From positions 1 through 64,000 of the forward strand of contig BTVV01000019.1 in assembly GCA_045863855.1 (NCBI GenBank): 64,000 nucleotides of DNA, in the 5' to 3' direction. How positions within the stretch are numbered: position 1 is the stretch's first letter; each line of letters begins with the position of its first letter. Below are positions 29,325 through 44,511 of the stretch, one piece after another. This stretch comes from Planctomycetota bacterium. GTDB taxonomy: Bacteria > Planctomycetota > SZUA-567 > H5-PLA8. The notes beneath the pieces are model-generated. The model saw only the letters and a program-made list of their open reading frames with translations. It was not told where the DNA came from and made no database searches. The translations under genes and the position numbers were made by a program.

Positions 29325-29499
29325 GGACGGCAATGGGGAAGGATGGAATTCGGAGGACCTTAAAGTCGAAAGGCATCAATCGTTGTTCTGCTTACGGCGT
29401 TTGCATTTAGCGCAAATTTGGGTAGCACTAGCGCCTTGTCCTAGCTTCCTCCTACGTTACGCCCAATTTAGGGCAGCCATTCCTATAAGGGGTCTAGCG

Positions 29500-30870
29500 A
29501 TGTTGGGTTACATGCGAAATTTGCGTTCGACGGGCTGGGTTTCGTGCGCCTTGGCGGGTGTGTTGTGCTTAAGCGCCGCAGGGGAGGAAAAGGCGGTTCC
29601 CGCGGCAGATCCGCCGCCCCGGCATACTCCAACGGATGCGCAAGCCGAACCGGCTGCCGCACCGACGCCGGCCCCTGCCCCCACTCCGGCTCCCGCGCCG
29701 GTGACGCCGCCTTTGGTGGCGGCGCCGAAGCCTCCGGCAGAACCCGCGGGCCGGAAGGTCCCGCCGCTCTCCAAGGAAATCACCGAACGGACGCACCCGC
29801 GCTATTTGATGGATCTGGCCGACGTGGAGCTGCGGTACAACTCGCTGGAGCGCGCGGAAGAACTGCTGAAGCGGGCGCTCGAGTTCAGCGCGCGAGAAGA
29901 GGACAAGTTGCTGGCGCAGAGCAAGCTGGCGGGGCTTTTGGAACGTCTCCAGGACTGGCCGGCGGCGATCGATCTGTACGAAAAGCTGGTGGAATCGGAA
30001 AAGAACGCGGGGCAAAAGGCCAATTATGCGATGCGCTTGGCGCAGATGTATATGCGCGGCGAACAGTACGATAAGGCCGAAGCGCTGCTGACGCCTCTGG
30101 CCGGGGCGGCTCCGGCGGGTGAACAGCCCGGGCAGAACGACTGGATCCCGCGTCTTGCGAACGAACGCTTGATGCAGGTTTGGAAGAATCAGCCTGGCCG
30201 CTTGGAAGCGATCGTCAAGGAGTGCGAAGATAAGCTGGCCCAGGATCCCAAGGACATCGCGACGCTGGAGAAGCTTTCGAATCTGTACGGCTCGGCCAAA
30301 CGCGACCCGGCGAAGTCGACGGAGATCCTGCAGAAGCTGGTGGAACTGAAGCCCGACGATCTGGATGCTCGCGACAAGCTCGCGGCGTCGTTGCAGGCCG
30401 CCGGAAATCTGGACGGCGCGCTGGTGCAGTACAAAAAGCTGCTGGAAGCCAAGCCCGGCCCGGAAGGCGCGCGCTTCTCGTACCGCGCGGGACAGATGCT
30501 TCTACAAGCCAACCGCAAGGACGAAGCGGTGGCGCTGGTGAAAGAGCATCTCGACCAGCCCGACGCGCCGGTGGGGAACTTAAACATGCTGGCGGCCTTC
30601 TACACGCAGGCGCAGATGACGGAACAGGCCGAAGGCGTGTACCTGAAGCTCGCCGAAAAGGCGACGCAGCCGGCGCAGCGCGCGGACTTCCTGCTGCGCG
30701 TGGCCGACATGGCGCGGCAGGCGAAGAACTACGACCGCAGCGAACAGCAGCTGCGCGCGATCCTCGAGCAGTTCAAAGACAATCCCTCGGTCAAAGCGCG
30801 GGCGAACCGGTCGCTGGTGCAGCTCTACGAAGAACAAGGGAAGGTCGGCGAGTTGAAGATCGAAAAGTAG
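29500..30870 (+). CDS. Exported TPR-repeat protein
   Basis: Signal peptide, PAPT linker, multiple TPR-like repeats (DWPAAIDLYEKLV, LVELKPDDLDAR). Confidence 0.8.
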   Translation: MLGYMRNLRSTGWVSCALAGVLCLSAAGEEKAVPAADPPPRHTPTDAQAEPAAAPTPAPAPTPAPAPVTPPLVAAPKPPAEPAGRKVPPLSKEITERTHPRYLMDLADVELRYNSLERAEELLKRALEFSAREEDKLLAQSKLAGLLERLQDWPAAIDLYEKLVESEKNAGQKANYAMRLAQMYMRGEQYDKAEALLTPLAGAAPAGEQPGQNDWIPRLANERLMQVWKNQPGRLEAIVKECEDKLAQDPKDIATLEKLSNLYGSAKRDPAKSTEILQKLVELKPDDLDARDKLAASLQAAGNLDGALVQYKKLLEAKPGPEGARFSYRAGQMLLQANRKDEAVALVKEHLDQPDAPVGNLNMLAAFYTQAQMTEQAEGVYLKLAEKATQPAQRADFLLRVADMARQAKNYDRSEQQLRAILEQFKDNPSVKARANRSLVQLYEEQGKVGELKIEK

Positions 30871-30921: not shown

Positions 30922-31725
30922 ATGGCAGGCTGGTTTTTTTCGATTCGAGGCAAGGCGCCGCGTGCGACGGGCGTGCTGCTGGGTTTGGTCCCGGTAGCGG
31001 CGCTCCTGGGTTTGTGGTTCGTGCTGACACACGGCGAAGTGGAAGAGCGCTCGATCAGCCCGACGATCCTGCCAAGCCCCTCGGAAGTCTGGTCGCAGAT
31101 CCCGGCCTTACGCGACCGCGAGCTGATCAAGCACACGCTGGCAAGCTTGAAGCGCGTGGGCTTGGGCTACCTGCTGGCGCTGGCGGTCACCTTTCCGCTG
31201 GGCGTGCTGATTGGGTCCTTCGGCAGCGCGCGCGCCCTCTTCAACCCGGCCATGACCGCCAGCGGGTACATTCCCATCGCGACCCTGGTGCCGCTGACGA
31301 TGAGCTGGTTCGGGACCGGCGAGCAGATGAAGATCATCTTCCTGGCGCTGGCCTTCGCGATCTACATGCTGCCCCTGTTCGTGAACGCCATCGACGCGGT
31401 GCCGGACGTGTATTTGCGCACGGCGGCGACGCTGGGCGCGAGCCGCTGGGACCAGGTCTGGAGCGTGCTGATTCCGGTGGCGCTGCCGGATATCTGGAAC
31501 GCGATGCGCCTGGCCTTCGGCGTGGGCTGGACGTACTTGGTGCTGGCCGAAGTGGTAGTGCTGGACGACGGGCTGGGCTACTTGGTCGAATTCTCGCGCC
31601 GGCGCGGCCCGCGAGAGCACATCTACCTGATCATTGTGGTGATCACGCTGATTGCCTGGGTGGTGGACTTGGCCTGGGCGAACTTAGGCAAGGTCCTGTT
31701 CCCCTATCGGAGCGATCGGCGATGA
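30922..31725 (+). CDS. ABC transporter permease (NitT/TauT/SsuC type)
   Basis: ILPSPSEV, SLKRVGLGY, AATLGASRW (EAA-like loop), GVGWTYLVLAE. Confidence 0.93.
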   Translation: MAGWFFSIRGKAPRATGVLLGLVPVAALLGLWFVLTHGEVEERSISPTILPSPSEVWSQIPALRDRELIKHTLASLKRVGLGYLLALAVTFPLGVLIGSFGSARALFNPAMTASGYIPIATLVPLTMSWFGTGEQMKIIFLALAFAIYMLPLFVNAIDAVPDVYLRTAATLGASRWDQVWSVLIPVALPDIWNAMRLAFGVGWTYLVLAEVVVLDDGLGYLVEFSRRRGPREHIYLIIVVITLIAWVVDLAWANLGKVLFPYRSDRR

Positions 31726-32573
31726 GCGAGATCAAGGCTCCGCGCACCGGACTTCCGGGATCGGTTGCGACGCCGATCGTCGAATGCCGCAACGTTACCT
31801 TAAGCTTCGGAACCTTTACCGCGCTTCTGGATTTGAACCTGAAGGTTGAAGATCACCTTGGCAAGGGTGAGTTCATCACCATCGTGGGGCCTTCGGGCTG
31901 CGGTAAATCGACGTATCTGAACCTCGTGGCGGGTTTCCTGAAGCCGACCGCAGGCGAAGTGCTGGTGCGCGGCGAGCCGGTCAAGAGCCCCGGGCGCGAC
32001 CGAGGCTTCATCTTCCAGCAGTACAGTTCCTTCCCGCACCTGACGGTGCGCCAAAACGTCCAGTTCGGCCTGAATCTGAACTGGAGCGAGATGGGGATGA
32101 CGGCGGCCGAGCAGCGCGACCGCGTGGAAGACTTGATCGCGACGGTTGGCTTGGCCGATCACGCGAAGAAGTATCCGCACCAATTGAGCGGCGGGCAGCA
32201 ACAGCGGGTGGCCATCGCGCGTTCGCTGGCCATGGAACCGCGCATCTTGCTGATGGACGAGCCGTTCTCGGCGCTGGACGAACCGACGCGCCTGGACATG
32301 CAGGAACTGGTGCTGAAACTCTGGTCGCGCATTCACCCGACGGTCTTCTGCATCACGCACAGCATCACGGAAGCGGTGTACCTGGGCGAACATGTCTGGA
32401 TCTTCAGCAACGCGCCAGGGCAGATCGCGTACGACATTCGCGAAGGCATCCCGGCCACGCTGGACGTTCCGCCACTGGAAGCGCAGGAAAAGCCGGCCTT
32501 TAAGGAAGCGGTACGAGCGGTCACGGAGGCGTTTCGGCGGGTGAGCGAAGGCGCGCACCCGAAACGGGCCTAA
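31722..32573 (+). CDS. ABC transporter ATP-binding protein (NitT/TauT type)
   Basis: ATGA overlap with the permease stop; GPSGCGKST, LSGGQQQRV, LLMDEPFSALD, ITHS. Confidence 0.95.
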   Translation: MSEIKAPRTGLPGSVATPIVECRNVTLSFGTFTALLDLNLKVEDHLGKGEFITIVGPSGCGKSTYLNLVAGFLKPTAGEVLVRGEPVKSPGRDRGFIFQQYSSFPHLTVRQNVQFGLNLNWSEMGMTAAEQRDRVEDLIATVGLADHAKKYPHQLSGGQQQRVAIARSLAMEPRILLMDEPFSALDEPTRLDMQELVLKLWSRIHPTVFCITHSITEAVYLGEHVWIFSNAPGQIAYDIREGIPATLDVPPLEAQEKPAFKEAVRAVTEAFRRVSEGAHPKRA

Positions 32574-32626
32574 CCCCGGTTTCCCTGCACGTGGCAATAG
32601 CCGGTCCGGGCCTTAGAATGCAGCGC

Positions 32627-33481
32627 ATGAAACCGGGCTTCTGGGATTACGTCAAAGCGGCCTTCAACGCGCGCCCCGCGGGCATGTTTGTGCCGCCAAA
32701 CTGGGTGGGCTTGGGAGCCTTCGGACTGTTGGGCTTGGTCAATCCGGGTTTCTGGGTCATCGGCGCCGGCCTGGAACTGGGCTACCTCTACACCCTTGGG
32801 ACGAACAAACGCTTCCAGCGCGTGGTGGACGCGAATGCGCTTAAAAAGAGCCAGAAGTCCTGGATCGACCGCAAAAACGATCTGCTCGGGCGGCTCGACG
32901 GCGAAAGCCGGGCATTGTACCGGCGGCTGGAAGAGCGCTGCCAGACGATCCTGAGCCAGTCGTACGGCGGGACGGCGGCGCCCTCGACAAGCTTGAAAGC
33001 TCAGAGCGACGGGCTGGCCCGGCTGCTCTGGATCTACCTCAAATTGCTGTTCACGCGGCAGCAGATCCGGCACGGCGTGCTGAACGAATCCTCGGGCGAC
33101 CGCGACGAGATCAAGCAGCGCATCGCGGACTTGGAGACAAAGCTGAAAGACGAAAATCTCGCCGATAATCTCAAGAAAAGCCTGAGCGGCCAGATGGAAA
33201 TTCTGCAGCAGCGCCTGACCAAACGCGAAGAAGCGCAGGAGAAGCTGGACTTTCTGGACGCCGAACTAACCCGCATCGAAGAACAGGCGGAACTGATTCG
33301 CGAACAGGCGGTGCTGAGCACCGATCCGGACTCGGTCTCGAACCGGATCGACGAAGTCACGGCGGCGCTGGACGGCACGGCGAGTTGGATTCAACAGCAG
33401 CAGAAACTGTACGGCGCGGTGGAAGACCTGATGGTGGATGCGCCCCCGATCTCGGTCGGCCCGGTGGCGGAGGAAGCCTGA
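32627..33481 (+). CDS. Membrane-anchored coiled-coil hypothetical protein
   Basis: N-terminal hydrophobic hairpin then a long heptad-rich helical region; TGATG coupling to the AAA gene. Start could be 32618. Confidence 0.8.
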   Translation: MKPGFWDYVKAAFNARPAGMFVPPNWVGLGAFGLLGLVNPGFWVIGAGLELGYLYTLGTNKRFQRVVDANALKKSQKSWIDRKNDLLGRLDGESRALYRRLEERCQTILSQSYGGTAAPSTSLKAQSDGLARLLWIYLKLLFTRQQIRHGVLNESSGDRDEIKQRIADLETKLKDENLADNLKKSLSGQMEILQQRLTKREEAQEKLDFLDAELTRIEEQAELIREQAVLSTDPDSVSNRIDEVTAALDGTASWIQQQQKLYGAVEDLMVDAPPISVGPVAEEA

Positions 33482-35214
33482 TGAGCGGCGAACTGGCGGG
33501 CTGGGCGGAGGAGATGCGTTCGCTGTTCCGTTCGGGGAGCGTGGCGCAGTTCATCCTGCACGGCAACATCTTCGACCTCTTCCCCGCCCCGGGCGGCGCC
33601 AAGCGCACACTCTCCTTGAAGCAATACCTCCAGGAAGTGATGTTCGGCGGCTACGATACGATCCTGACCTACGACCGCGGCAAGGGCGTGCGGGCGGTGA
33701 AGGGCGGCGAGGACTGGGGCGAGTGGCTGGAGCAGTTGACCGGCGAGGAAGACAAGCTCTCGGTGGCGCAGCTTCGTGACAGCTACCGCGCACTGGAGCT
33801 GATCGACCGCTATCTGCTGCGAACCATGAACCTGCAGGCGCTGACCAAGGGCAAAGCGCAGAAGGTGCCCACTAAAATCGCGGTCCTGATCGAATTCGCG
33901 GAGTTCGTCGCGCCGCGCGGCGATCCGTTGCAGCTTTCGGGCAACTTCAGCACCAACATCGTCAAGATCTTGGGCTGGGCGAACGATCCGGCAATCCTGC
34001 AGTGCAACATCGCGACGGTGCTGCTCACCGAGGGTTTGCACGATCTGAACGAGCTGCTGGTGGAGAACCCGCACGCCTCGAAACTGCACGTACCCCTGCC
34101 CGACGAACGGGAGATGAAGGAATACCTCGAGGTCATGACCGAGACCCAGTTCCCGGCGCTGCCCTCGAAATGCGAAGTCCCCATGGATGCGCTGGCGCAG
34201 CGGATGACCGGCTTGAGCCGCGTCGGGGCGCGCACGGTCCTGGCCACCGCGCTGAACAACGACAAGCCGATCACCGCAAAGTGGCTCTCGAACATGAAGA
34301 AGGAGATGATCGAGCGCGAATGTGCGGGGCTTCTGGAGTTCATCGAGTCGGATTGGACGCTGGAGCACGTGGCGGGGCTGGACGCGGCGAAGCAGTGGCT
34401 GCGCGAGGACGGCGAACTGCTGCGTAAGCAGAAACTCCATGCGCTGCCGATGGGCTACCTCATCGCGGGGCGAATCGGGACCGGCAAAACGTTTCTGGTG
34501 CGCTGCTGGGCGGGCGAACTGGGCATCCCGTGCGTGGTCTTCAAAAACTTCCGCGACCGCTGGGTGGGTGCGACGGAATCGAACCTCGAGAAGATTTTCG
34601 GCATTCTGCGTGCGCTGGGGCAGGTGCTGGTCTTCGTCGACGAAGCCGACCAGGCCGCGGGCAAGCGCGAGGGCGGCAGCGGCGACAGCGGCCTGTCGGG
34701 CCGCGTGTATTCGATGCTCGCGAAAGAGATGTCGGACACCGCCAATCGCGGCAAGATCGTCTGGATCTTCGCCACCAGCCGTCCGGACCTGCTGGAAGTG
34801 GACCTGAAGCGTCAGGGCCGCCTGGACGTCCATATCCCGCTCTTCGCGCCGCAGACGGCCGACGAGATGAAAGTGCTTCTGAGCGCGGTGGCGAAGAAGC
34901 TCAAGTTCCCGCTCAAGACCGAAGACCTGCCGGATCTGCCAGAAGGCCTGCAGTTGGGCGGCAACGAGCTGGAAGGCATACTGGTCCGTGCGCTGCGCGT
35001 GTACGAACTGTCGGAGCCCAAGAAGCCGCTGAAAGAAATCCTGGGCGACGTGATCAAGGAAGTGCGTCCCAGCGCGCATTCGCGCAAACTGGAATACATG
35101 GATCTGGTGGCGGTCAAAGAATGCACGGACTCGCGATTCCTCCCCGAGCGCTTCCAGAAACTCTCTCCGGAAGAATTGGAATTCCGAATCGACGAACTGC
35201 GCCGATTTGTATAA
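33481..35214 (+). CDS. AAA+ ATPase (classical clade; degenerate N-terminal module plus active C-terminal module)
   Basis: Walker A GRIGTGKT, pore loop DRWVGATE, Walker B VFVDEAD, sensor 1 ATSRP, Arg finger RQGRLD. Confidence 0.92.
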   Translation: MSGELAGWAEEMRSLFRSGSVAQFILHGNIFDLFPAPGGAKRTLSLKQYLQEVMFGGYDTILTYDRGKGVRAVKGGEDWGEWLEQLTGEEDKLSVAQLRDSYRALELIDRYLLRTMNLQALTKGKAQKVPTKIAVLIEFAEFVAPRGDPLQLSGNFSTNIVKILGWANDPAILQCNIATVLLTEGLHDLNELLVENPHASKLHVPLPDEREMKEYLEVMTETQFPALPSKCEVPMDALAQRMTGLSRVGARTVLATALNNDKPITAKWLSNMKKEMIERECAGLLEFIESDWTLEHVAGLDAAKQWLREDGELLRKQKLHALPMGYLIAGRIGTGKTFLVRCWAGELGIPCVVFKNFRDRWVGATESNLEKIFGILRALGQVLVFVDEADQAAGKREGGSGDSGLSGRVYSMLAKEMSDTANRGKIVWIFATSRPDLLEVDLKRQGRLDVHIPLFAPQTADEMKVLLSAVAKKLKFPLKTEDLPDLPEGLQLGGNELEGILVRALRVYELSEPKKPLKEILGDVIKEVRPSAHSRKLEYMDLVAVKECTDSRFLPERFQKLSPEELEFRIDELRRFV

Positions 35215-35300
35215 CGAAATGCGCGGGCGGGGGCCGCCGGCGGTGTAATCCGGGTAGCGCGGCGTAACGGCTGAATCGAGAACCCCGGGAAGCCCATGCT

Positions 35301-38123
35301 ATGAAGCCGATGACCTGCTGGACGTTGATATGCGCGTTGCCCGCCTTGGCGCTGGCCGCACATGAAGAGGCTTCGCTGATCGATGGCGCTCAGCCCTTGG
35401 GCGGGTGGAGTTTCCTGAACGGCCCCGAATTCCCGGGCGCCAAGGGCGAACTGGCGCTGCTGCCGGACGCCGCGGGGGACGGGCAACCCGGATTGAAGCT
35501 TTCCGGCGATTTCACCGGCGGCGGAAATTACGTGCAAGCCACCCGGGAGTTCAAGAGCGCCGGGGCGGAGCGGCTTTCCTTCAAGCTCAAGGCGCCGGGC
35601 ACCACGAAGCTGACCATCCGGCTGATCGACGACAGCCAGCAATGCCACCAGATCGATCTGAAGTTCGAGCCGCGCGACGACTGGCGCGAGATCGATTTCC
35701 CCTTGGCTGAATTCTTCAAACGCATGGGCACTTCGGCCGCGGTGCCGAACGTTTCGCGCTACGAGAAATGGGGCGGCAAAAACGATGGCAAATTCCACGC
35801 TCCGGCCCGCGCGATGGGCATTCTGGTGAGCAAACATACGAAGCCCAACGACCTGAAGCCCGTGATAGAACTGAGCGGCATCCGCATCCTGGGCGCGGCT
35901 TCGGCGTATGCGGAGAATTTCGAATCGGCCGCGGCGCTGCCGCAAGGCTGGTCGGCCAAGGGCGCAGTCTCGGTTGAGGCAGTAGGCGCACCCCAAGGCA
36001 AGCATGCGCTCAAGTTGAGCCGCGCGCTCGAAAATTTGCAGGACGAGACCGGCGCCGTCGCCGCGGCCTTCACGGCCGCACCAGGCTTTTGGGCGATTCG
36101 CGGAACAACCCGGACGGAACTGAATTCGCCGGACAGTTCGTACAACCTGACGGTCGGTGTGGAGGCGCTCAAAACCGGGGGCGGCGTGATCGAGACGCTG
36201 GCGGTGCACGAGCCCTTCGGCAGGACGAGTTGGACGGCGTTCGAGAAGAAAGTCGAATTGCCCGCGGGTACCGCGGCGGCACGCCTGACCGTGCGCTTGA
36301 ACAAGGCCGATGGCGCGGCGTGGATCGACGAACTGTCGGTTGCGCCGATCGCGCAGGATTACGAAAAGCGAGTGGAGCGGATCGTGATCTCTTCAGGGCG
36401 GCTTGGACACCTTTTTCTGCCCGACGACAAGCCGGTATTCCAAGTGCAGGTGGAGACCGTACGCGCGTTGCGCGAGCCCGAAGCGCGGCTGTCGTTCGCG
36501 GTGCTGGATTATTGGGGCGCTGAGCAGGCCGCTTCCGCAGAAACGAAACTCATCGAAAAGCAAAAGACGGGGCAGAACGTGACGTACTCCGCCGAGGTGG
36601 ACCTTTCCGGATTACCGCTGGAAGTAGGCCGCTACTACGAATTGCACCTCGGCGTGCCGCGCGAAAAGGGGCCGGAAGAAACCGAATACGCCGGCTTCGC
36701 GAAGCTGCCTGAGGCCGTTACGGCAAAGCACAAACCGGAGGATCTGCCGTTCACGATCCGCAACTGGGACAATCGCGTGCCAGACTATCTGCGCCTTTCG
36801 GCGCGTTTGGGCATCCGAACCATCGGGCTCTGGTGCGGCTGGGACTCGAAGGCGCCGTACAAGCCGAACGCGCCCTGCCTGGACTTGTGCCAGGAACTCG
36901 GTGCACGCTGGATCTCCACGACTCCGGCGGCTTCGGTGGAGCGCGTGGGGTTCAAGGAGTACGACGAGACGGCGTTGCGCGAAGGGATGCGGAATTTCCT
37001 TAAGACGTTCGGCGACAAAAAACCGTACCTTATCGCGCTGGGCAACGAACCCCATGGCAAACTGGAGAAGGTAAAGGAGAATGTCCGCGCCTATCGGATT
37101 CTCTACGAAGCGATCAAGGCGCACGATCCGGAAATCTTCGTGATCGGCACCTCGGTGGAACCGAACGAAGACTACTTCAATCTCGGCTACTACAAATACC
37201 TCGACGCCTACGATTTCCACATTTACGAGCATCACACCAACGTGCGCAAGACGATGCAGGCCTACAAAAATTTGATGGAGCGACATAACGCGGTGAAACC
37301 GCTGTACTCGACGGAACTGGGCCTAAACAGCCAGGGTCAGCCGCGCCACGACGTGGCGGTAAGCCTGGTGAAAAAGCTGACGGTCTTCTTCGCGGAGGGC
37401 GGCGCGAACGTCTCCTGGTTCACGATCAATTACCCCGATCCGAAAGGCAAAGCGCGCGGCTCGTCGGGCGACTCGCACTGCGTATTCGACTGCAAGTACA
37501 GCAAATACAATCCGCGCCTCGACGCGGTGATGTACTACTGGATGGTGAACGGGATCGAGGTCAAGAAATTCGTGCAAGAGCGCGTGTACGCGGACGGAAC
37601 CGAAGCCTACCTGTTTCGAGATGCGGAAGGCCAGTGCCTGCAGATTCTATGGAACGAGAAAGCTGCGCCGGTCGTGGCGCTGGGGCTGCCCGGGGTGGCC
37701 CGTGCCGAACTGATTCGCATCGACGGCAGCCGCGCCGAGTTAAAGCCTTTGGACGGAAAGCTGAATGTAGGCGTGTCGAACGAGCCGGTTTTGCTGCGCT
37801 ACATCCAGAAGGACGGAGCGCTGGCCGAGACTTTGGGCGAGCCGGCGTTTAAAGCGGTTCCGCCGCCCAAGGCGCTGGCGAAGGGACAAACGCATGCGTT
37901 CGTACTGGAAGGCGCGAAGCTCGCGCCGGCGCAATTCCGGGCCATCGCGCCGCCGCTTTGGAAAACGGAGCTGAACGCGAAGGAAGGCGGCGGTGTCGAA
38001 TGCCGCTTGGAGATTCCGGCGGATACCCGGGCGCGCGAAGCGCGAATCACGCTTCAGTACGTCCCGTCCGATGCCGCGATGGCGGGCGAAGCCACGCTAA
38101 CGTTGCCTTTGGGCGGTCCGTGA
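35301..38123 (+). CDS. Large secreted clan GH-A-like glycoside hydrolase with CBM-like domains
   Basis: Signal peptide; two beta-sandwich regions; LGNEP acid/base, DFHIY, YSTELG nucleophile-like motif. Confidence 0.7.
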   Translation: MKPMTCWTLICALPALALAAHEEASLIDGAQPLGGWSFLNGPEFPGAKGELALLPDAAGDGQPGLKLSGDFTGGGNYVQATREFKSAGAERLSFKLKAPGTTKLTIRLIDDSQQCHQIDLKFEPRDDWREIDFPLAEFFKRMGTSAAVPNVSRYEKWGGKNDGKFHAPARAMGILVSKHTKPNDLKPVIELSGIRILGAASAYAENFESAAALPQGWSAKGAVSVEAVGAPQGKHALKLSRALENLQDETGAVAAAFTAAPGFWAIRGTTRTELNSPDSSYNLTVGVEALKTGGGVIETLAVHEPFGRTSWTAFEKKVELPAGTAAARLTVRLNKADGAAWIDELSVAPIAQDYEKRVERIVISSGRLGHLFLPDDKPVFQVQVETVRALREPEARLSFAVLDYWGAEQAASAETKLIEKQKTGQNVTYSAEVDLSGLPLEVGRYYELHLGVPREKGPEETEYAGFAKLPEAVTAKHKPEDLPFTIRNWDNRVPDYLRLSARLGIRTIGLWCGWDSKAPYKPNAPCLDLCQELGARWISTTPAASVERVGFKEYDETALREGMRNFLKTFGDKKPYLIALGNEPHGKLEKVKENVRAYRILYEAIKAHDPEIFVIGTSVEPNEDYFNLGYYKYLDAYDFHIYEHHTNVRKTMQAYKNLMERHNAVKPLYSTELGLNSQGQPRHDVAVSLVKKLTVFFAEGGANVSWFTINYPDPKGKARGSSGDSHCVFDCKYSKYNPRLDAVMYYWMVNGIEVKKFVQERVYADGTEAYLFRDAEGQCLQILWNEKAAPVVALGLPGVARAELIRIDGSRAELKPLDGKLNVGVSNEPVLLRYIQKDGALAETLGEPAFKAVPPPKALAKGQTHAFVLEGAKLAPAQFRAIAPPLWKTELNAKEGGGVECRLEIPADTRAREARITLQYVPSDAAMAGEATLTLPLGGP

Positions 38124-38198
38124 AACACCGATCGGTTCTTGGCCAACGGCCGCGCACGGCATAGGGTTTAGGGCCAAATCGCATCGAGGAGCTTCGCC

Positions 38199-38861
38199 AT
38201 GTCCTTGTCCGACAAGCTTTTTGCCTTGGGCGGAAAGCTCGGCATTTTAAAAGTATCGGCTCCCAAAGTAGCCGCTGCGCAGCAAGCGGGCCCCGTGAAG
38301 TTGCAGATGCGTACCATCACGCTGGCGGAGTTGTCGCGCGAAGTGAATGCTCCGGGCTTGCAACACTTGGCCCAGCAGCCCGATTTCCTCGCCGCGCCGC
38401 TATCCGATATCTACGTGGCGGCGGGGCTGCATCCGCCTGAAAACGGATGGGGCGTGGAGCGCCTGACCGAACATCTGAAAAGCCCGGCTTTGAATGGACT
38501 TTCGCGCGCCGAGGTTCAGGCCGAACTGTCGGGCATGTTCGTCTCTCCGGCGTCGGTGGAGGACGTGCTGCGCGAAGCCTTGGGGCGCGACCAGGCGCTG
38601 GACCGCTTCGAGGCCGTGGCCAAGCAGAAGCTCGAAGAACGCGCGGCTCGGCGCGCAAAGGAAGTAGCCGACCTGGAGCAGCGCATCGTCGAGTTGCAGG
38701 CGGCGCTGGGCAAACTCAAGCAGGAAGCCGCTGCGGCGGCGGCGCTCGATGCCGAACACTGGAACGCTTGGTTGGCGGCTAAAGATGCGGCTGAGGCGGA
38801 ACTGGAGTGGACCGTTAGCTTCCTGACCGAAAAGCCCATTGTCACGAGAAACGGCTCTTGA
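38199..38861 (+). CDS. Hypothetical helical/coiled-coil protein upstream of pspA-like gene
   Basis: RBS GAGGAG; amphipathic N-terminus; C-terminal heptads (EVADLEQRIVELQAALGKLKQE). Confidence 0.75.
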   Translation: MSLSDKLFALGGKLGILKVSAPKVAAAQQAGPVKLQMRTITLAELSREVNAPGLQHLAQQPDFLAAPLSDIYVAAGLHPPENGWGVERLTEHLKSPALNGLSRAEVQAELSGMFVSPASVEDVLREALGRDQALDRFEAVAKQKLEERAARRAKEVADLEQRIVELQAALGKLKQEAAAAAALDAEHWNAWLAAKDAAEAELEWTVSFLTEKPIVTRNGS

Positions 38862-38972
38862 CCGAACCGACCGGCCTTGGATTTCAGCCCGGGTTCGCCG
38901 AAAGCCTTAAATCTCTATTCTGATACATAGTGCGGACCCGCAGGACCGGCTAAAAGGTGGGGCCGGAAAGGC

Positions 38973-39001
38973 TTGTGAGCGGCGCACCGGCTGGCTACAA
39001 T
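38973..39001 (+). promoter_or_regulatory. Sigma70-like promoter for the pspA-like gene
   Basis: TTGTGA (38973-38978)-N17-TACAAT (38996-39001), 40 nt before ATG 39042. Confidence 0.5.
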
Positions 39002-39041
39002 GCCTGCATTGCTGCTTACTCGAAGAAGGAATACAAGCGCC

Positions 39042-39842
39042 ATGGCTTTCTTTGCGCGTATCGGACGTTTGTTCAAGGGCTTTCTGGGCCTCTTCGTCAG
39101 CGGCCTGGAAGAAGCCAACCCCGAAGCCTTGATGGAGGCTGCGCGGCAGGAATTCCGCGACAAGATGGCGCAATACAACATGGCGCTGGCGCGGATGGCC
39201 GGCATCGCCGAACGTCTCAAGACCCAAATCAAGACCAAAAGCACGAAGCTGAAGGATCTGGAGCGGCGGGTGCTGGCCAACCACCGTGCAGGGAACCTGC
39301 AACTCGCCGGTTCGTTGGCACGCGAGCTTCAAGAAACCCGCGCCGACCTCGAAAACGATACGGCCGAATTGAAGGATACCGAAGAGGCCTATACGGCCAA
39401 TCTGCGCCAGGCGAAGGTCGTCCAGAAAGAGTTCGAAGAAAAGGTCCGCCGCCTGGAGAAGCAGCTCTCGCAGGTGAAGATCAAGGAAGCGCAAGCCGAA
39501 GCGGCCGCGGCGCTGGGCAGCGTATCGTTCGAAATCGGCGACATGGGCGACACGATGAAGACGGTGGAGGAGGTTCTGAACAAGCGCTACGAAGTATCGG
39601 CGGGCAAAGCGCGAGTAGCCAAGGACATCGTGGACATGGAAAAACTGAACGCCAAGGAAAGCGAAGAGAAGGCGCTGGAGTCCGCGGCGCTGGCGGAATT
39701 CCTGGCCGAGCAAGGTATCCAGGCTCCGGGTTTGCCCGATGCGGCGCAGAAGGAGATGGGACCCGGCGCCACCGAAGCCGCTCCGGGCGTGAAAGAAATG
39801 GGACCGGCGAGTCAGTCGGAAAGCCCCCAAGCCGGTTCTTAG
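39042..39842 (+). CDS. PspA/IM30 (Vipp1, ESCRT-III superfamily) protein
   Basis: Amphipathic MAFFARIGRLFKGFLG, LEEANPEALME, long coiled-coil hairpin, ARVAKD, ALAEF, disordered tail. Confidence 0.88.
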   Translation: MAFFARIGRLFKGFLGLFVSGLEEANPEALMEAARQEFRDKMAQYNMALARMAGIAERLKTQIKTKSTKLKDLERRVLANHRAGNLQLAGSLARELQETRADLENDTAELKDTEEAYTANLRQAKVVQKEFEEKVRRLEKQLSQVKIKEAQAEAAAALGSVSFEIGDMGDTMKTVEEVLNKRYEVSAGKARVAKDIVDMEKLNAKESEEKALESAALAEFLAEQGIQAPGLPDAAQKEMGPGATEAAPGVKEMGPASQSESPQAGS

Positions 39843-39915
39843 CCCGTGCGCAAGACGGCTGTACTCAATGCATCTGCGATTTCGAATCGTCAAAACGTAA
39901 ACGCGAGGAACCATC

Positions 39916-41679
39916 ATGTCGGATGAAGCCGGAAGTTCTCTGACGCCGTTGGGCAAGCTGATCTCGATCGTCCTGATCCTCGGTTTGGTGGGTCTGGGCG
40001 TCTATATCGTGATGGGCAAGGGCGAAACCCCTAAGCCCTCCGGCTCCGGACCGGTCTCGAAGAAAACCGGAGATGGGCCGGCGCCCGACGGGCCCGAGAT
40101 TCCTCCGCCGCCCGGCGAGAGCTTGGAAGCGCCCGACCTGACGGGCATCACGACGGTAAAGGAGTACAAATACGTCCCGGCCGACAAACTGCCGCCGGTG
40201 AAGGGCGCGGCGGCGTACAAGTGGGATGAAAAGAACAAGACCTTCGTCTTCAGCTACAACGTCTGGGCTGGCTGGCTTCCGGTCATCGCCGCCAACCACG
40301 GCACCGAGCCGAACGAAGAAAGCGTCTTCTTCAAGAAGTACGGTTTCAATGTACAGATGAAGCTGATGGACGATCCGGTCGCGGCGCGCGATGCGTTCGC
40401 GGCGGGCGAAGTACATAGTATGTGGGGCACCGTGGACATGCTGGTGCTCTTCGCGGGCGAACTGCTGCGCGACAGCCGGACGAGTCCGCGCATCGTACAG
40501 CAGGTGGACTGGTCCAGCGGCGGCGATGGGATCGTGGTCAGGACGAAGTCCATCAAGAGTGTAAAGGACCTGGCCGGCAAGACGGTGACGCTGGCCCAGA
40601 ATGCGCCGAGCGAATACTACCTTACCTCGCTCCTGCTGAGCGCCGGGATGAAGCCGGCAGACATCAAGCCCAAGTACACCGCTACGGCTTTCGAGGCCGC
40701 GGCGGCGTTCGTGAGCGATCCCAGCGTGCACGCTTGCGTGACGTGGGCGCCGGACATCTACAACATTCCCGAACGCGTGGCGGGAACCAAGATCCTCAGC
40801 AGCACCGCCGACGCGAACAAGCTGATCGCCGACGTCTACGCGGTGCGCGCGGACTTCGTGCGCGACCACCCGGAGATCGTCGAGGGCCTCGTGGCGGGGA
40901 TCTTCGAAGGCATGGACATGGTCAAGGCCGATCCCGCGCCGGCGTGCGCATGGATGGCCGCGGCGTTCCAGATGACGCCGCAGGAAGTGGACGGCATGCG
41001 CGGCGACTTCCACACCACCAACTTCGCCGAAAACGTGCAGTTCTTCCTGAACCAGTCGAACCCGACCAACTTCGAGCGTACCTGGAGCAACGCGGGCTAC
41101 GTGTACCGCAAGCTGGGCCGCATGGATGCGCCGGTGAACTTCGACCAGGTGATGGACTTCGGCTTCGTGAAGAAGCTGCAGGAAAAAGGCACGTTCAAGC
41201 ACCACCAGGACGAGAACGTCGCGAGCTTCACGCCCGGCGCGGTTAAGCAGATCGCCGAGGCTCCCATTCTGACCCAGACGATCCGGATCAACTTTTTCCC
41301 GAACAGCGCCAACCCGTACGAGGGCGCGCGCGATCAGTTCGGCAATCTGGTGGCCGGAAAGCTGTACGACCCGAACGTCGACGCGACGCTGGAGCAGTGC
41401 GCGCGGCTCTCGGGCCAGTTCGACCGCGCCGTGGTCCTGATCGAAGGTCACACCGATTCGAGCATGCGCGGCAAAGTTCCCGAGGACGCGGTGAAGCGCC
41501 TCAGTCTCGACCGCGCCAACTCGATCAAGCAGGCGTTGATCGAGAAGTTCAAGTTCGACCCGAACAAGTTTATCGTGAAGGGCATCGGCTGGGAAAAAGC
41601 CTTCGATCCGAACCAGCCGGACAACCACACGCTCAACCGCCGCGTGGAGATCAGCATCTTCCCGCCGGAACAGCAATAG
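39916..41679 (+). CDS. Membrane-anchored NMT1/SsuA-like ABC substrate-binding protein fused to an OmpA-like domain
   Basis: N-terminal TM helix; WAGWLP, DWSSGGDGIV, SVKDLAGKTV, TWAP; C-terminal IEGHTD...LSLDRANSIK...NRRVEI. Confidence 0.88.
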   Translation: MSDEAGSSLTPLGKLISIVLILGLVGLGVYIVMGKGETPKPSGSGPVSKKTGDGPAPDGPEIPPPPGESLEAPDLTGITTVKEYKYVPADKLPPVKGAAAYKWDEKNKTFVFSYNVWAGWLPVIAANHGTEPNEESVFFKKYGFNVQMKLMDDPVAARDAFAAGEVHSMWGTVDMLVLFAGELLRDSRTSPRIVQQVDWSSGGDGIVVRTKSIKSVKDLAGKTVTLAQNAPSEYYLTSLLLSAGMKPADIKPKYTATAFEAAAAFVSDPSVHACVTWAPDIYNIPERVAGTKILSSTADANKLIADVYAVRADFVRDHPEIVEGLVAGIFEGMDMVKADPAPACAWMAAAFQMTPQEVDGMRGDFHTTNFAENVQFFLNQSNPTNFERTWSNAGYVYRKLGRMDAPVNFDQVMDFGFVKKLQEKGTFKHHQDENVASFTPGAVKQIAEAPILTQTIRINFFPNSANPYEGARDQFGNLVAGKLYDPNVDATLEQCARLSGQFDRAVVLIEGHTDSSMRGKVPEDAVKRLSLDRANSIKQALIEKFKFDPNKFIVKGIGWEKAFDPNQPDNHTLNRRVEISIFPPEQQ

Positions 41680-41705
41680 TCCGCATTCGGTCCGTCCGAG
41701 CACCG

Positions 41706-41743
41706 GAGGCCGGGGCGCGTAGCGCGTCCCGGCCTCTTCCTTT
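41706..41743 (+). terminator. Intrinsic terminator after the SBP-OmpA gene
   Basis: GAGGCCGGGGCGCG-TAG-CGCGTCCCGGCCTC 14-bp stem (one G-U), then TTCCTTT. Confidence 0.65.
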
Positions 41744-41808
41744 ATATGCGCCATCAGGCCGGACTTTCCGGTATACTGGCTGCGTACGTTCGAGGACGGA
41801 CCCGCCGC

Positions 41809-44511
41809 ATGAGCCACGCCCCCGCCCCATCGCCGTCGCTGCGCCCAAGCTGGCAGGGCTACGCCGTCGCTTCGCCTTTGCCCGCGGCGGAAGCCGCGCC
41901 CGAGCCGGAAGGCCCGCAGGGCGAATACAACCTCCAGGCGCCCGAAGCGCCGCTCTCGGTGCCGCTCCTGCCGGAGCAGGCGCCTGCCCGTCCCGCGGAG
42001 TTGCTCGCGCCGGCTGGCGGTTTCGACGCGGCGTGCGCCGCCTTCTATTACGGGGCCGACGCGATTTACCTGGGGCTTCAGAAGTTTTCGGCGCGCGCCG
42101 AAGCGCAAAATTTCACGCTCGAAGAACTGGACGTCATCACCGCCTTCGCGCACAGCCTGACCCCGCGGCGGCGCGTCTTCGTGACGCTGAACACGCTGAT
42201 CCTGCAGCACGAACTCCGTGAACTGGTGGATACCGTCGCGGCGCTGGAAGACATCGGCGTCGATGCGGTGATTCTGCAGGATCTCGGCGTGTACGGCCTG
42301 CTGCGCAAACATTTCCCTGCGATCGAACTCCACGGCAGCACGCAGATGGCGGTGCATAACCGCGCGGGCGCCGAAGCGCTGCGCGCTATGGGCTTCGCGC
42401 GCGTGGTCCTGGCGCGCGAGTTGACCTTCGAGGAAGTGAACGAGATCACGGCCACCTCTGGAGTGGAGACCGAAGTTTTTGTCCACGGAGCGTTGTGCTA
42501 CAGCTACAGCGGGCTGTGCCTGTTCAGCTCGCAGCAAGTGGGCCGCAGCGGCAACCGCGGCAAGTGCGCGTACACGTGCCGCGACAGCTACACCGTCGAA
42601 GGCGCGCCCGAGACCCTGCGCGACGGAGCGCCGACGAAGCGCGATCCGGGCAACGGATTCCCGTTCAGCATGAAGGATCTGGCGTTGCCCGACCATCTGC
42701 CCGCGTTGCGGGCCGCAGGCGTGAGCTGCTTCAAGATCGAAGGGCGCAAGAAAAGCCCGCTCTACGTCGCCACCACCACCGACTATTACCGCGGCCTGCT
42801 GGACGGTTCGATCGCGCCCGAAGATCGCGCAGCACGCGAAGCCGATCTCCAGACGGTTTTCAGCCGCCCGTGGACGCGCCTGTTCGTGCAGTCGCACCGC
42901 GACAAGGAAGTAGCCGACCGCGATACCGTGGGGCATCGCGGGACGCCGGTGGGCGAAGTCGATCGGGTGGTGAACGACCGCCACGGACAGCCGTGGCTGC
43001 GCTTTCGCTCCGATCGCGCACTCGAGCGGCACGACGGATTGCAGATCGATCTGCCGACGCTCGGCCGGCCGTTCGGCTTTGCCGTCGAAGAACTCCGCGT
43101 CATGGACGGCCGCGACAACTCCGAGCGCGCGTACGAAGCCCCGGCCGGAAGCCGCGTAGAGGTCAAGCTGCCCGAAGACCATCCGCCGCTTCCGCAAGGC
43201 GCGGCCGTCTACTGCTCCAGTTCGCAGGACGTGAAGCGCCGTTTTGCTTTCGACCGGCCCAATCCAAGCAAGTTCCGCTCCCGGCGCGACGTTAGCGTCG
43301 AGCTGACCCTGAATCGCGATGCACTGGCGGTGATGCTGCGAGTGCCGGCGCGGCACGAACGCGAGGAAGCCATCGAAGTCCGCGAGACGTTGCCCGGCCC
43401 GTTTGAGGCGGCGCGCGATGCGGCGGGCACCGAAAAAGCGGTGCGGCAGGCTTTCGAAAAGCTGGGCGAGACGCGCTTCGAGCTGGCGGCGTTGGATCTG
43501 CGCAATCCGGACGGGCTCTTCGTACCCGCATCGAAACTCAATGCGCTGCGCCGCGATCTCTGCGCGCGCGCCGAAGCGGAACTCCAAGCGCGCGGCAAGC
43601 GGCGCCTGGATACGCTGTGGGCCGAAACCGAGCCGCGCGCCAAAAAATCCTCGGGCGAGCGTTCCGCGTTCGTTTGGGCGCTGAAGACCGATCGCATCGG
43701 AGCGCTGGAAGCGCTGGAGGACGCGGACTTCGAAGGCCTCGACGAGATGGTGGTGGACATCGCCCGCGACGGACTGGCGGCGCTGGAGCCCCAACTGGAG
43801 GCGCTGTCCGCGCGCTTGGGCCGCGAACGCATCCGTCTGGCGCTGCCTGCCCTGACGCGAAAGTGGGAAGAACGGCAACTCGTACACAAGATCGAGAAGC
43901 TCCGCGCCGCCGGTTGGACGAAGTGGGAACTTGCCAACGTCTCGGGCTGGACGTTCCTGGGCGTGCCCCCGGAAGCCGCAGCCGTCCGCGCGGCGGGCTT
44001 GGATCTGGCCGCGGACTGGTCGCTGTACGCGATCAACCGGCTGGCCGTTCAGCAACTGGCCGAGATGGGCGCCGCGCGCTTTGTCTGTTCGCCCGAGGAC
44101 GGCTTGGAGAATCTGCGCTCGCTGCTGGGCGAATTCGCCGGGCAGGCCACCGTGATCGTGCATCAGGACACGCCGCTCTTTTTGGCGGAGAGCTGCGCAT
44201 ACGCCAATTTAATCGGCGGCTGCCCGGGCAAAGCCAATTGCCGCTTCGAGCAGATGGCGCTCACGAGCAGCTTTGGCGAACGCTTCCTGGCGCTGGATTA
44301 CCACTGCCGGACCATCGTGCTCAGCGAAGGCGCCTACTGTCTCTCGCCGCGATTGAAGGATCTGGCCGCCGCCGGCGCACGGAACCTGCGCGCGGAATTC
44401 GTATACCGCGCTTACGAGCCCGGCGAGTTGCGCGAGCGTTGGCGCCAGATCCGCGCCGGCAGGAATGTGCCTCAAGGCCACTGCGCCAACTTCGACCGCG
44501 GATTACTGTAG
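41809..44511 (+). CDS. U32 family Fe-S hydroxylase (RlhA-like long form)
   Basis: ELLAPAG, GADAIYLG, HGSTQM, HGALCYSYSGLC...SGNRGKCAYTCR, KIEGRKK; DUF3656-like middle; degenerate second U32-like region. Confidence 0.9.
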   Translation: MSHAPAPSPSLRPSWQGYAVASPLPAAEAAPEPEGPQGEYNLQAPEAPLSVPLLPEQAPARPAELLAPAGGFDAACAAFYYGADAIYLGLQKFSARAEAQNFTLEELDVITAFAHSLTPRRRVFVTLNTLILQHELRELVDTVAALEDIGVDAVILQDLGVYGLLRKHFPAIELHGSTQMAVHNRAGAEALRAMGFARVVLARELTFEEVNEITATSGVETEVFVHGALCYSYSGLCLFSSQQVGRSGNRGKCAYTCRDSYTVEGAPETLRDGAPTKRDPGNGFPFSMKDLALPDHLPALRAAGVSCFKIEGRKKSPLYVATTTDYYRGLLDGSIAPEDRAAREADLQTVFSRPWTRLFVQSHRDKEVADRDTVGHRGTPVGEVDRVVNDRHGQPWLRFRSDRALERHDGLQIDLPTLGRPFGFAVEELRVMDGRDNSERAYEAPAGSRVEVKLPEDHPPLPQGAAVYCSSSQDVKRRFAFDRPNPSKFRSRRDVSVELTLNRDALAVMLRVPARHEREEAIEVRETLPGPFEAARDAAGTEKAVRQAFEKLGETRFELAALDLRNPDGLFVPASKLNALRRDLCARAEAELQARGKRRLDTLWAETEPRAKKSSGERSAFVWALKTDRIGALEALEDADFEGLDEMVVDIARDGLAALEPQLEALSARLGRERIRLALPALTRKWEERQLVHKIEKLRAAGWTKWELANVSGWTFLGVPPEAAAVRAAGLDLAADWSLYAINRLAVQQLAEMGAARFVCSPEDGLENLRSLLGEFAGQATVIVHQDTPLFLAESCAYANLIGGCPGKANCRFEQMALTSSFGERFLALDYHCRTIVLSEGAYCLSPRLKDLAAAGARNLRAEFVYRAYEPGELRERWRQIRAGRNVPQGHCANFDRGLL

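What the first reader, a model, noticed from the sequence alone, without database searches (positions are those of the whole stretch)
30922..41679. Candidate bacterial ESCRT-III/AAA+ envelope system: PspA-like protein, AAA ATPase, ABC transporter and SBP-OmpA fusion
Seen: co-oriented genes for an ABC permease and ATPase (ATGA-coupled), a TM plus coiled-coil protein translationally coupled (TGATG) to an AAA+ ATPase, a second coiled-coil unknown, a PspA/IM30 protein and a TM-SBP-OmpA fusion, closed by a terminator at 41706. The ABC subunits and the only matching-class SBP bracket the whole block, 8 kb apart, which ties it together. No pspB/C/F or liaRS-like gene is in the window. Established: PspA/Vipp1 are ESCRT-III homologues, eukaryotic and archaeal ESCRT-III is recycled by the AAA ATPase Vps4, and E. 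coli PspA and cyanobacterial Vipp1 have no such established partner. Inference: a membrane repair/remodelling machine in which a peptidoglycan-tethered SBP and ABC unit senses or imports a signal and the AAA ATPase disassembles PspA polymers. Similar neighbourhoods may appear in comparative Psp surveys, but I know of no functional characterisation.
Basis: partly seen in the sequence, partly recalled or inferred. Interest (0 to 1): 0.85.

Follow-up and report, generated by a model that had tools for sequence, protein, structure and literature searches.

The report
PspA operon with dedicated AAA+ motor
This is a real, widely conserved bacterial gene cluster that pairs the membrane-repair protein PspA with its own ATP-driven unfolding-type motor; a 2024 genome survey already listed the layout, but the PspA tail carries a short conserved tag that may recruit the motor and gives a direct experimental test.

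Summary
The gene set is in print: Ravi et al. 2024 (PMC11237479, Table S3, OGG56892.1), with the same remodelling guess; I found no experiment. This scan already holds 22 such findings in at least 21 other genomes. Tested here: of 80 related loci, 75 carry the membrane-hairpin protein, 73 PspA, 69 the SBP-OmpA. The ABC transporter is dispensable: 0 of 33 full-flank subtype-B loci have it. The ATPase is not Vps4: no MIT, dead D1, intact D2, Cdc48/VAT-like. Not found in my searches: PspAs that go with this ATPase end in a K-x-[ILM]-G-P tail motif (33 of 34 distant ones, loose form, defined after seeing the data; 1 of 34 other PspAs), and a modelled ATPase-tail complex gave weak support (0.53 against 0.01). 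Best reading: a convergent Vps4 analogue that recycles PspA via this tail (0.5). New member of a known, untested kind.

The parts
30922..31725 (+). ABC importer permease, TauC/SsuC class (267 aa); accessory module, subtype A only
   Evidence: PF00528 E 9e-18; TauC model E 8e-34, under its cut-off; in 24 of 80 loci
31722..32573 (+). ABC ATPase, TauB/NtrCD class (283 aa), ATGA-coupled to the permease; Walker A, signature, Walker B and H-loop read intact in the sequence
   Evidence: 22 of 27 subtype-A loci, 0 of 43 subtype-B loci
32627..33481 (+). Membrane-hairpin plus cytoplasmic helical-bundle protein (284 aa from the probable ATG at 32627; the position Ravi et al. label SIG+TM+Snf7); probable membrane anchor or transducer; core
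   Evidence: 75 of 80 loci; AlphaFold pLDDT 88.6; no Pfam family over cut-off in 43 members; present in 18 of 18 distant loci with the SBP
33481..35214 (+). Two-domain classical AAA+ ATPase (577 aa): degenerate D1, intact D2 (Walker A G330-T337, pore-loop W361, Walker B D387/E388, R444/R447); no MIT or N domain; core
35301..38123 (+).
   Evidence: 1 of 80 loci; the same-genus genome G001 keeps its orthologue on another contig; no Pfam family; weak GH hits E 0.03
38199..38861 (+). Soluble helical/coiled-coil unknown (220 aa); accessory, confined mostly to the close subtype-A clade
   Evidence: 27 of 27 subtype-A, 0 of 43 subtype-B loci; only 2 of 15 distant ABC-bearing loci; alignment; no named family
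39042..39842 (+). Divergent PspA/Vipp1 (ESCRT-III superfamily) protein, 266 aa, with N-terminal amphipathic helix and C-terminal tail; core
   Evidence: 73 of 80 loci
39750..39806 (+). Two copies of the K-x-[ILM]-G-P tail motif (PspA residues 237-241 and 251-255); candidate ATPase-recruiting tag
   Evidence: complex model, weak support
39916..41679 (+). Single-pass TM (15-33) + NMT1/SsuA/TauA-class solute-binding domain + OmpA-like peptidoglycan-binding domain (587 aa); D514 and R533 conserved in both subtypes; core
   Evidence: 69 of 80 loci
41705..41737 (+). Intrinsic-terminator-like hairpin, 15 pairs (12 G-C), closing the block

Best explanation
An inner-membrane remodelling/repair system of two modules. 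Module 1 is a divergent PspA and a dedicated Cdc48/VAT-like ATPase: PspA polymerises on the inner face of the cytoplasmic membrane (inferred from family), leaves its flexible tail exposed, and the K-x-[ILM]-G-P tag docks on the ATPase, most likely on the catalytically dead D1 ring (site inferred, not shown); the intact D2 then pulls subunits through its aromatic pore loop and recycles or reshapes the polymer, doing the job of Vps4 by convergence (inferred). Module 2 is the TM-SBP-OmpA protein with the membrane-hairpin protein: it spans from membrane to peptidoglycan, binds a small solute, and marks or signals where PspA assembles (inferred). The ABC importer, the soluble helical protein, a TM-vWA protein and a flavin amine oxidase are exchangeable accessories. 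Shown here: anatomy, motifs, co-occurrence, modularity. Not shown: binding, disassembly, ligand, stress.
For: Core TMcc-AAA-PspA in 17 of 17 subtype-A and 33 of 33 subtype-B full-flank loci. Among 41 related genomes the ATPase orthologue (E<=5e-61) and PspA (E<=1e-10) occur in the same 17, even where unlinked; 15 of those 17 have the hairpin protein. In 201 phylum genomes: both 25, PspA only 27, ATPase only 11, neither 138; 9 of those 11 have a divergent PspA beside the ATPase. Of 43 distant ATPase loci, 11 keep PspA without hairpin protein or SBP, 2 keep the hairpin protein without PspA. Tail motif: K251, G254, P255 at 90% or more in 61 PspAs of 21-76% identity; 15 of 15 linked and 18 of 19 unlinked distant PspAs carry the loose form, against 1 of 28 PspAs from genomes without the ATPase and 0 of 6 canonical paralogues. 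A sister ATPase clade goes with a different ending, [LI]-P-E, in 9 of 9. D2 motifs invariant in 61 of 61, pore-loop W/Y in 61 of 61; D1 lacks the Walker A lysine and the Walker B glutamate. Complex model of ATPase plus PspA 205-262: score 0.53, best of 3 controls 0.01, runs agree in at least 85% of contacts, partner pLDDT 63-64; weak support. Ravi et al. propose the same general role.
Against: The complex pass is weak: the mark was reached by 116 of 157 solved complexes and 2 of 215 mismatches, but at 0.60 or under by only 18 solved complexes and by both mismatches; no interface was given; my own alignments were used, with close rows pre-filtered for the motif. The motif was defined after seeing the data, and the motif-bearing PspAs are kin, so its match to the ATPase tree may be shared descent; the tag could bind another partner or the polymer itself. 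The gene coupled to the ATPase start in this window and in 75 of 80 close loci is the hairpin protein, not PspA. 15 of 43 distant ATPase loci have none of the partners nearby. Sensor 1 is T-S/C-R instead of the usual T-N-R (usual form recalled). Synechocystis PspA hydrolyses ATP itself and remodels without a partner ATPase (PMC11746142 passages).
Confidence: 0.5

Rival explanations
1. The ATPase works on the membrane-hairpin protein or on the SBP-OmpA/ABC complex (assembly, extraction or reset), and the PspA tail motif docks PspA on the hairpin protein or on the ATPase only as a scaffold; PspA polymers are not its substrate.
For: TGATG coupling of hairpin gene and ATPase; adjacency in 75 of 80 close loci; a TM-vWA protein follows the SBP in 12 of 17 and 22 of 33 full-flank loci, and vWA proteins often serve AAA+ chaperones (recalled); 2 distant loci keep hairpin protein and ATPase without PspA.
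Against: When the operon breaks, the hairpin gene stays with the SBP (18 of 18) while the ATPase is there in 10 of 18; PspA-ATPase pairs outnumber hairpin-ATPase pairs 11 to 2. The vWA proteins have an N-terminal membrane segment and may face the periplasm (sequence).
Confidence: 0.25
2. The unit is mainly a wall-tethered solute importer or sensor (sulfonate/taurine/amine class), and PspA plus ATPase are a protective or regulatory accessory that guards the membrane or relays the signal.
For: SBP resembles SsuA and TauA structures (E 3e-8 to 2e-5) and permease and ATPase are of the matching class; subtype-A SBPs lie with ABC genes in 15 of 16 distant loci; subtype B often has a flavin amine oxidase with a twin-arginine-like leader (22 of 33), hinting at an amine ligand.
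Against: No ABC genes in 0 of 33 full-flank subtype-B loci; no permease orthologue in 21 subtype-B genomes (best E 1.9e-28, against 1e-98 or better in 4 of 4 subtype A; completeness not given); PspA-ATPase pairs exist without any SBP.
Confidence: 0.2
3. A loose cluster of envelope genes with no shared mechanism.
For: A foreign-looking gene sits in the middle of this copy; in several genera of the same family the genes lie in three separate places.
Against: Conserved order across three phyla, genome-level co-occurrence when unlinked, start-stop overlaps.
Confidence: 0.05

Closest known systems
PspA + (inactive AAA + classical AAA) + SIG+TM+Snf7 + ABC ATPase + permease + PBPB-OmpA operon of Ravi et al. 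2024 (PMC11237479; section 18, Text S2.2, Table S3 row OGG56892.1)
   Same: Same six gene types; their order PspA, PBPB+OmpA, TM, ABC ATPase, TM+Snf7, double AAA is a circular permutation of this block; same proposed role in ATP-dependent membrane remodelling.
   Different: This copy adds a soluble helical protein and a passenger hydrolase. The passages and supplement parts I read do not mention a tail motif, an ABC-less OmpA-bearing subtype or split loci (they do list an Archangium PspA-PBPB-TM+Snf7 row with no ATPase or ABC in the operon). Their Snf7 label for the TM protein was not reproduced here.
ESCRT-III / Vps4 (CdvB / CdvC)
   Same: An ESCRT-III-superfamily polymer with a flexible C-terminal tail, and a classical-clade AAA+ with an aromatic pore loop.
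   Different: No MIT or Vps4_C in 61 members; two AAA modules; CdvC model scores 35 bits against 70 for CDC48 and 71 for FtsH; the tail tag is not a helical MIM (MIM form recalled). Analogue at most.
Cdc48 / p97 / VAT / Rix7 type II AAA+ unfoldases
   Same: Best sequence matches VAT E 1e-44, Cdc48 E 6e-44; full-length fold match to Cdc48 and Rix7 D1-D2, E 3e-20, TM about 0.5.
   Different: No N domain; D1 has lost its Walker A lysine and Walker B glutamate.
Classical Psp systems (E. coli pspFABC, Bacillus lia, mycobacterial clgR-pspA-pspM)
   Same: PspA with a membrane partner; the nearest named Atlas cluster of the hairpin protein is Rv2743c/PspM (0.87, 183 of 256 features, family on 40% of members; a lead only).
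   Different: No PspC in the genome; the Rv2743c HMM does not hit this gene even at E 1; the ATPase is not an NtrC-type activator like PspF.
SsuABC / TauABC importers
   Same: Same SBP, permease and ATPase classes.
   Different: SBP is membrane-anchored and fused to OmpA; all equivalog scores are below cut-off; ligand unknown; the SBP-OmpA also exists without the transporter.

Membership tests
Ravi 2024 PspA/double-AAA/ABC/PBPB-OmpA operon | PspA gene | tested here: met
Ravi 2024 PspA/double-AAA/ABC/PBPB-OmpA operon | Two AAA+ domains, N-terminal copy inactive | tested here: met
Ravi 2024 PspA/double-AAA/ABC/PBPB-OmpA operon | ABC ATPase, permease and PBPB+OmpA protein | tested here: met
Ravi 2024 PspA/double-AAA/ABC/PBPB-OmpA operon | Membrane protein before the ATPase carries a divergent Snf7 domain | tested here: inconclusive
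   Membrane protein is in the same position; Snf7 HMM has no hit in the genome at E 1, PspA profile comparison probability 0.1%, fold searches list only generic helical bundles; OGG56892.1 itself was not compared
PspA/Vipp1 (ESCRT-III superfamily) | Sequence homology over the helical core | tested here: met
   PF04012 over positions 3-218, E 1.1e-7 but 32.1 bits under the 33.9 cut-off; family profile to Vipp1 E 4e-14, PspA E 5e-4 to 9e-3
PspA/Vipp1 (ESCRT-III superfamily) | Membrane binding and polymer formation | not testable with these tools
   needs cryo-EM or liposome assays
Vps4/CdvC | N-terminal MIT domain | tested here: not met
   no MIT hit in 61 of 61 members at E 0.01; the model enters an alpha/beta AAA fold at residue 23
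Vps4/CdvC | Single AAA module with Vps4_C | tested here: not met
   two modules, no Vps4_C
Vps4/CdvC | Recruited by a C-terminal motif of ESCRT-III | tested here: inconclusive
   conserved tail motif and weak complex support, 0.53 against 0.01
Vps4/CdvC | ATP-dependent disassembly of the polymer | not testable with these tools
   needs reconstitution
Cdc48/p97/VAT | Tandem D1-D2 classical AAA modules | tested here: met
Cdc48/p97/VAT | N-terminal double-psi barrel domain and nucleotide-competent D1 | tested here: not met
Classical pspFABC system | PspC present | tested here: not met
   0 matches in the 94%-complete genome; rings in 7 of 14 controls
Classical pspFABC system | PspF or PspB elsewhere in the genome | not tested
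   only the block's own genes were scanned
PspM/Rv2743c membrane anchor | Homology of the hairpin protein to Rv2743c | tested here: inconclusive
   Atlas lead 0.87; HMM does not hit the gene
OmpA-like peptidoglycan-binding domain | Conserved Asp and Arg of the GHTD...LS..RA motif (role recalled) | tested here: met
   G511 H512 D514, L529 S530 R533 A534 at 90% or more in 23 subtype-A and 38 subtype-B proteins; PF00691 over cut-off
SsuABC/TauABC importer | Sulfonate or taurine ligand | not testable with these tools
   class similarity only

The most novel reading that the evidence does not exclude
Bacteria evolved their own Vps4 equivalent by convergence: a Cdc48-like ATPase whose dead D1 ring replaces the MIT domain and reads a K-x-[ILM]-G-P (or L-P-E) tail tag that replaces the MIM, recycling PspA polymers that a peptidoglycan-tethered solute sensor positions without any need for transport.
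Probability: 0.35. Interest if true: 0.8.

Novelty: new member of a known kind. Interest (0 to 1): 0.45.

Why it matters
A 2025 review states that a Vps4-like ATPase regulating PspA assembly appears absent in bacteria (PMC7619361, passage), and Ravi et al. only inferred a link from gene order. If this ATPase recycles PspA through a tail tag, motor-driven ESCRT-III turnover arose twice, and the two-protein pair gives a minimal system to test it. The tail motif turns a vague neighbourhood guess into a peptide-level experiment. The operon itself is not new, and this copy has no special feature except a doubled motif and a passenger gene.

Tried and rejected
Hairpin protein as ESCRT-III/Snf7: Foldseek gave no match at E<=0.001; VIA-align over 48,161 chains gave generic bundles, best Z 9.1, rmsd 5.0, 151 aligned, with no ESCRT-III entry in the 50 rows shown, which does not exclude it; PDB sequence profile only coiled-coil noise; hhalign to PspA 0.1% for it and 0.8% for the soluble helical protein. 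As PspM: HMM negative. 'Soluble helical protein occurs if and only if ABC': true in the close clade but only 2 of 15 distant ABC loci have it, so rejected as a general rule; 0 of 5 subtype-B genomes had it, in a call without a positive control. Subtype A against B as many independent events: within the close clade the tree needs only 1 change (support 60); B-type SBPs also occur beside two distant ATPases (L157, L177), so perhaps three contexts, no more. Expression: 7 of 10 listed runs held only 0.05-0.10 of the words; 4 were laid; contigs, mostly of a related strain, covered operon and flanking genes alike and one ran through the terminator, so nothing on transcription follows. TPR gene and U32 peptidase as members: 2 of 80 loci each, rejected. 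The 940-aa gene as a member: 1 of 80, rejected. The IQ-TREE run did not finish; the tree is FastTree. Literature: five full-text searches listed no experimental study of this operon or mention of the tail motif; subscription journals are mostly missing, so absence from print is not shown. The scan's own index had 0 findings for the tail-motif words and none near this place.
Full report
Observation. The window is G000:C19:1-64000; its nearest relative, 99% identical in the ATPase, is titled Planctomycetota. Domain calls are from Pfam and NCBIfam. PspA scores just under the Pfam cut-off (32.1 against 33.9 bits), but a 61-row family profile hits Vipp1 structures at E 4e-14. PspC was not found in the genome.

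Prior art. Ravi et al. 2024 (PMC11237479; I read the abstract, outline, matched passages including all of section 18, part 1 of 3 of the supplement and matched passages of Text S2.2) describe PspA with a two-AAA-domain protein whose N-terminal copy is inactive, a membrane-anchored 'divergent Snf7', an ABC ATPase, a permease and a PBPB+OmpA protein (Table S3, OGG56892.1), and suggest ATP-dependent membrane remodelling linked to solute transport. That is this gene set in permuted order. Passages of a 2025 review (PMC7619361), of the PspA structure paper (PMC11746142) and of Makarova 2024 (PMC10936438) show that no bacterial Vps4-like partner is established. Five searches listed no experimental work on the operon. 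The scan had already noted the system 22 times in at least 21 genomes; I saw those notes after forming my reading.

Conservation. The ATPase found 183 relatives in the genome collection, of which the best 80 were fetched. Of these 80, 75 have the hairpin protein, 73 PspA, 69 the SBP, 30 the helical unknown, 24 the permease, 1 the 940-aa gene. They fall into 27 subtype-A loci, 43 subtype-B loci (SBP about 27% identical to the window's) and 10 unassigned, mostly truncated. With at least 4 kb upstream and 7 kb downstream, 17 of 17 A loci have permease, ABC ATPase and helical unknown, and 0 of 33 B loci have any of them; a TM-vWA gene follows in 12 of 17 and 22 of 33, and a flavin amine oxidase in 22 of 33 B loci. 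A permease orthologue was found in 4 of 4 A genomes (E 1e-98 or better) and 0 of 21 B genomes (6 have weak class-level matches, best 1.9e-28; completeness not given). The B SBP keeps its OmpA domain and motif. So the core is hairpin protein, ATPase, PspA and SBP-OmpA; transport is optional. Within the close clade that split may be a single event, but B-type SBPs without ABC genes also sit beside two distant ATPases.

Modularity. In 41 related genomes the ATPase orthologue and a PspA match occur in the same 17, and the hairpin protein in 15 of them (one further genome has a marginal PspA hit at 2e-4, and three have more distant ATPases at about 1e-38 to 1e-42). In several genera the system is split into SBP-permease-ABC-hairpin, PspA alone and ATPase alone. 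In 201 phylum genomes PF04012 and the ATPase profile give both 25, PspA only 27, ATPase only 11, neither 138; kin are not independent. Of 43 distant ATPase loci, 15 have no partner nearby, 11 PspA only, 2 hairpin protein without PspA, 15 larger sets. Of 18 distant loci with a strong SBP match, 18 have the hairpin protein, 12 PspA and 10 the ATPase. This gives two modules: PspA with ATPase, and SBP-OmpA with hairpin protein.

The ATPase. The model (pLDDT 92.4) matches Cdc48 and Rix7 D1-D2 over its whole length, and VAT and Cdc48 lead the sequence matches. No MIT or Vps4_C appears in 61 members. D1 keeps the strands but has H-G-N-V-x-D for Walker A and D/E-F-A for Walker B; D2 has Walker A, D387/E388, R444/R447 in 61 of 61 and W or Y at pore loop 1 in 61 of 61. 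It is an unfoldase-type motor by anatomy and is not Vps4.

The PspA tail. Beyond helix 5 and a variable Ala/Pro-rich linker, K251, G254 and P255 are at least 90% conserved among 61 PspAs of 21-76% identity. The window's PspA has the motif twice. It is in the last 35 residues of 63 of 67 close ORFs; the 4 misses are ORFs that run on or are frameshifted, and 6 partial PspAs were not counted. With the loose form [KR]-x-[ILM]-G-[PEALT], fitted after inspection, it is in 15 of 15 distant linked and 18 of 19 unlinked PspAs (strict G-P: 12 and 13; shuffles expect under 0.5), 1 of 28 PspAs from 25 of the 27 genomes lacking the ATPase, and 0 of 6 canonical paralogues in ATPase-bearing genomes. Those canonical PspAs stop at the last helix. 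One sister ATPase clade goes with an [LI]-P-E ending (9 of 9) and another with a third ending (2 of 2); I assigned these labels by hand, and clustering on a tree does not show co-evolution. A complex prediction of the ATPase with PspA 205-262 scored 0.53 against 0.01 for the best of 3 controls, with at least 85% agreement and partner pLDDT 63-64; the tool rates this weak support, since at 0.60 or under only 18 of 157 solved complexes and both passing mismatches (2 of 215) fall. The alignments were mine: 36 close pairs kept after filters on length, motif and redundancy, plus 25 distant pairs of which 11 are unlinked and assumed cognate.

The other parts. The hairpin protein has about 1,570 relatives at 50% clustering and folds confidently into an amphipathic helix, a glycine-rich hydrophobic hairpin and a helical bundle. 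It matched no solved fold specifically, so the published Snf7 label is neither confirmed nor excluded; the Atlas points to PspM as a lead only. The SBP resembles SsuA and TauA, with a single anchor at 15-33. The 940-aa protein has no Pfam family and weak glycosidase hits; its orthologue lies elsewhere in the same-genus genome G001, and in 24 of 29 measurable loci the ATPase stop and the next start lie within about 6 bases (26 within 8), so it is an insertion into a normally coupled junction. RNA-library contigs were uninformative.

Mechanism and verdict. Most likely (0.5): the ATPase is a convergent Vps4 analogue that grips the PspA tail and recycles polymers that the SBP-OmpA and hairpin protein place at wall-tethered membrane sites. 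Rivals: the ATPase remodels the membrane module (0.25); the unit is mainly an importer or sensor with PspA as guard (0.2); a loose cluster (0.05). It works like ESCRT-III/Vps4 by hypothesis, is not a member of the Vps4 family, and is a member of the operon class of Ravi et al. Novelty: new member of a known, untested kind. Interest 0.45, carried by the tail motif and the dispensable transporter, which make an open question testable with two proteins and a peptide.

Noticed in passing
window 35301-38123 (+): 940-aa secreted protein with no Pfam family, a G-N-E-P and a T-E-L-G motif typical of clan GH-A glycosidases (recalled), inserted into the operon in this lineage only; matches in 9 of 41 related genomes.
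   Followed up: partly
L046:14422-16655 and other subtype-B loci: Flavin amine oxidase with a twin-arginine-like leader and a TM-vWA gene follow the ABC-less SBP-OmpA in Vicinamibacterales-type loci (24 of 43); L177 has an amine oxidase on the opposite strand next to a B-type locus. Suggests an amine ligand. The window's genome has a 55% homologue on C12, unlinked.
   Followed up: partly
L024:14941-15777: TM-vWA gene downstream of the SBP in 41 of 70 typed loci; not found in the window's locus or genome with these queries.
   Followed up: partly
L095-L097, L176, L181-L185: A sister system with a more distant ATPase, several SBP or SBP-OmpA genes, a vWA gene and a PspA ending in L-P-E; its PspA is mostly missed by PF04012.
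   Followed up: partly
L114:135-4006: A hairpin-protein homologue lies behind an SBP_bac_11-vWA fusion and a TM-SBP_bac_11 gene, with no ABC, PspA or ATPase in the stretch; recalls TelA/XpaC-type neighbourhoods (recalled, not tested).
   Followed up: no
L112, L113 with L083, L085 (G004, G012): These genomes keep a close hairpin + helical-unknown locus from which ATPase and PspA are gone, and a separate PspA-ATPase pair of a different (38%) clade: apparent replacement of one module.
   Followed up: partly
L099:8524-10089 (G000:C24): A second, distant ATPase with similar layout in the same genome, among genes that look like a mobile element; not part of this system.
   Followed up: no
window 41746-44511 (+): 921-aa U32 peptidase (TrhP-like) starts just behind the terminator; linked only within the genus (2 of 80 loci).
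   Followed up: partly
window 29383-30870 (+): TPR protein 51 bases upstream of the permease, co-oriented; linked only within the genus (2 of 80 loci).
   Followed up: partly
Atlas rank 1: The nearest cluster of the 220-aa helical unknown lists Uroviricota as its commonest phylum (28 members with a record); unexplained, may be unrelated.
   Followed up: no
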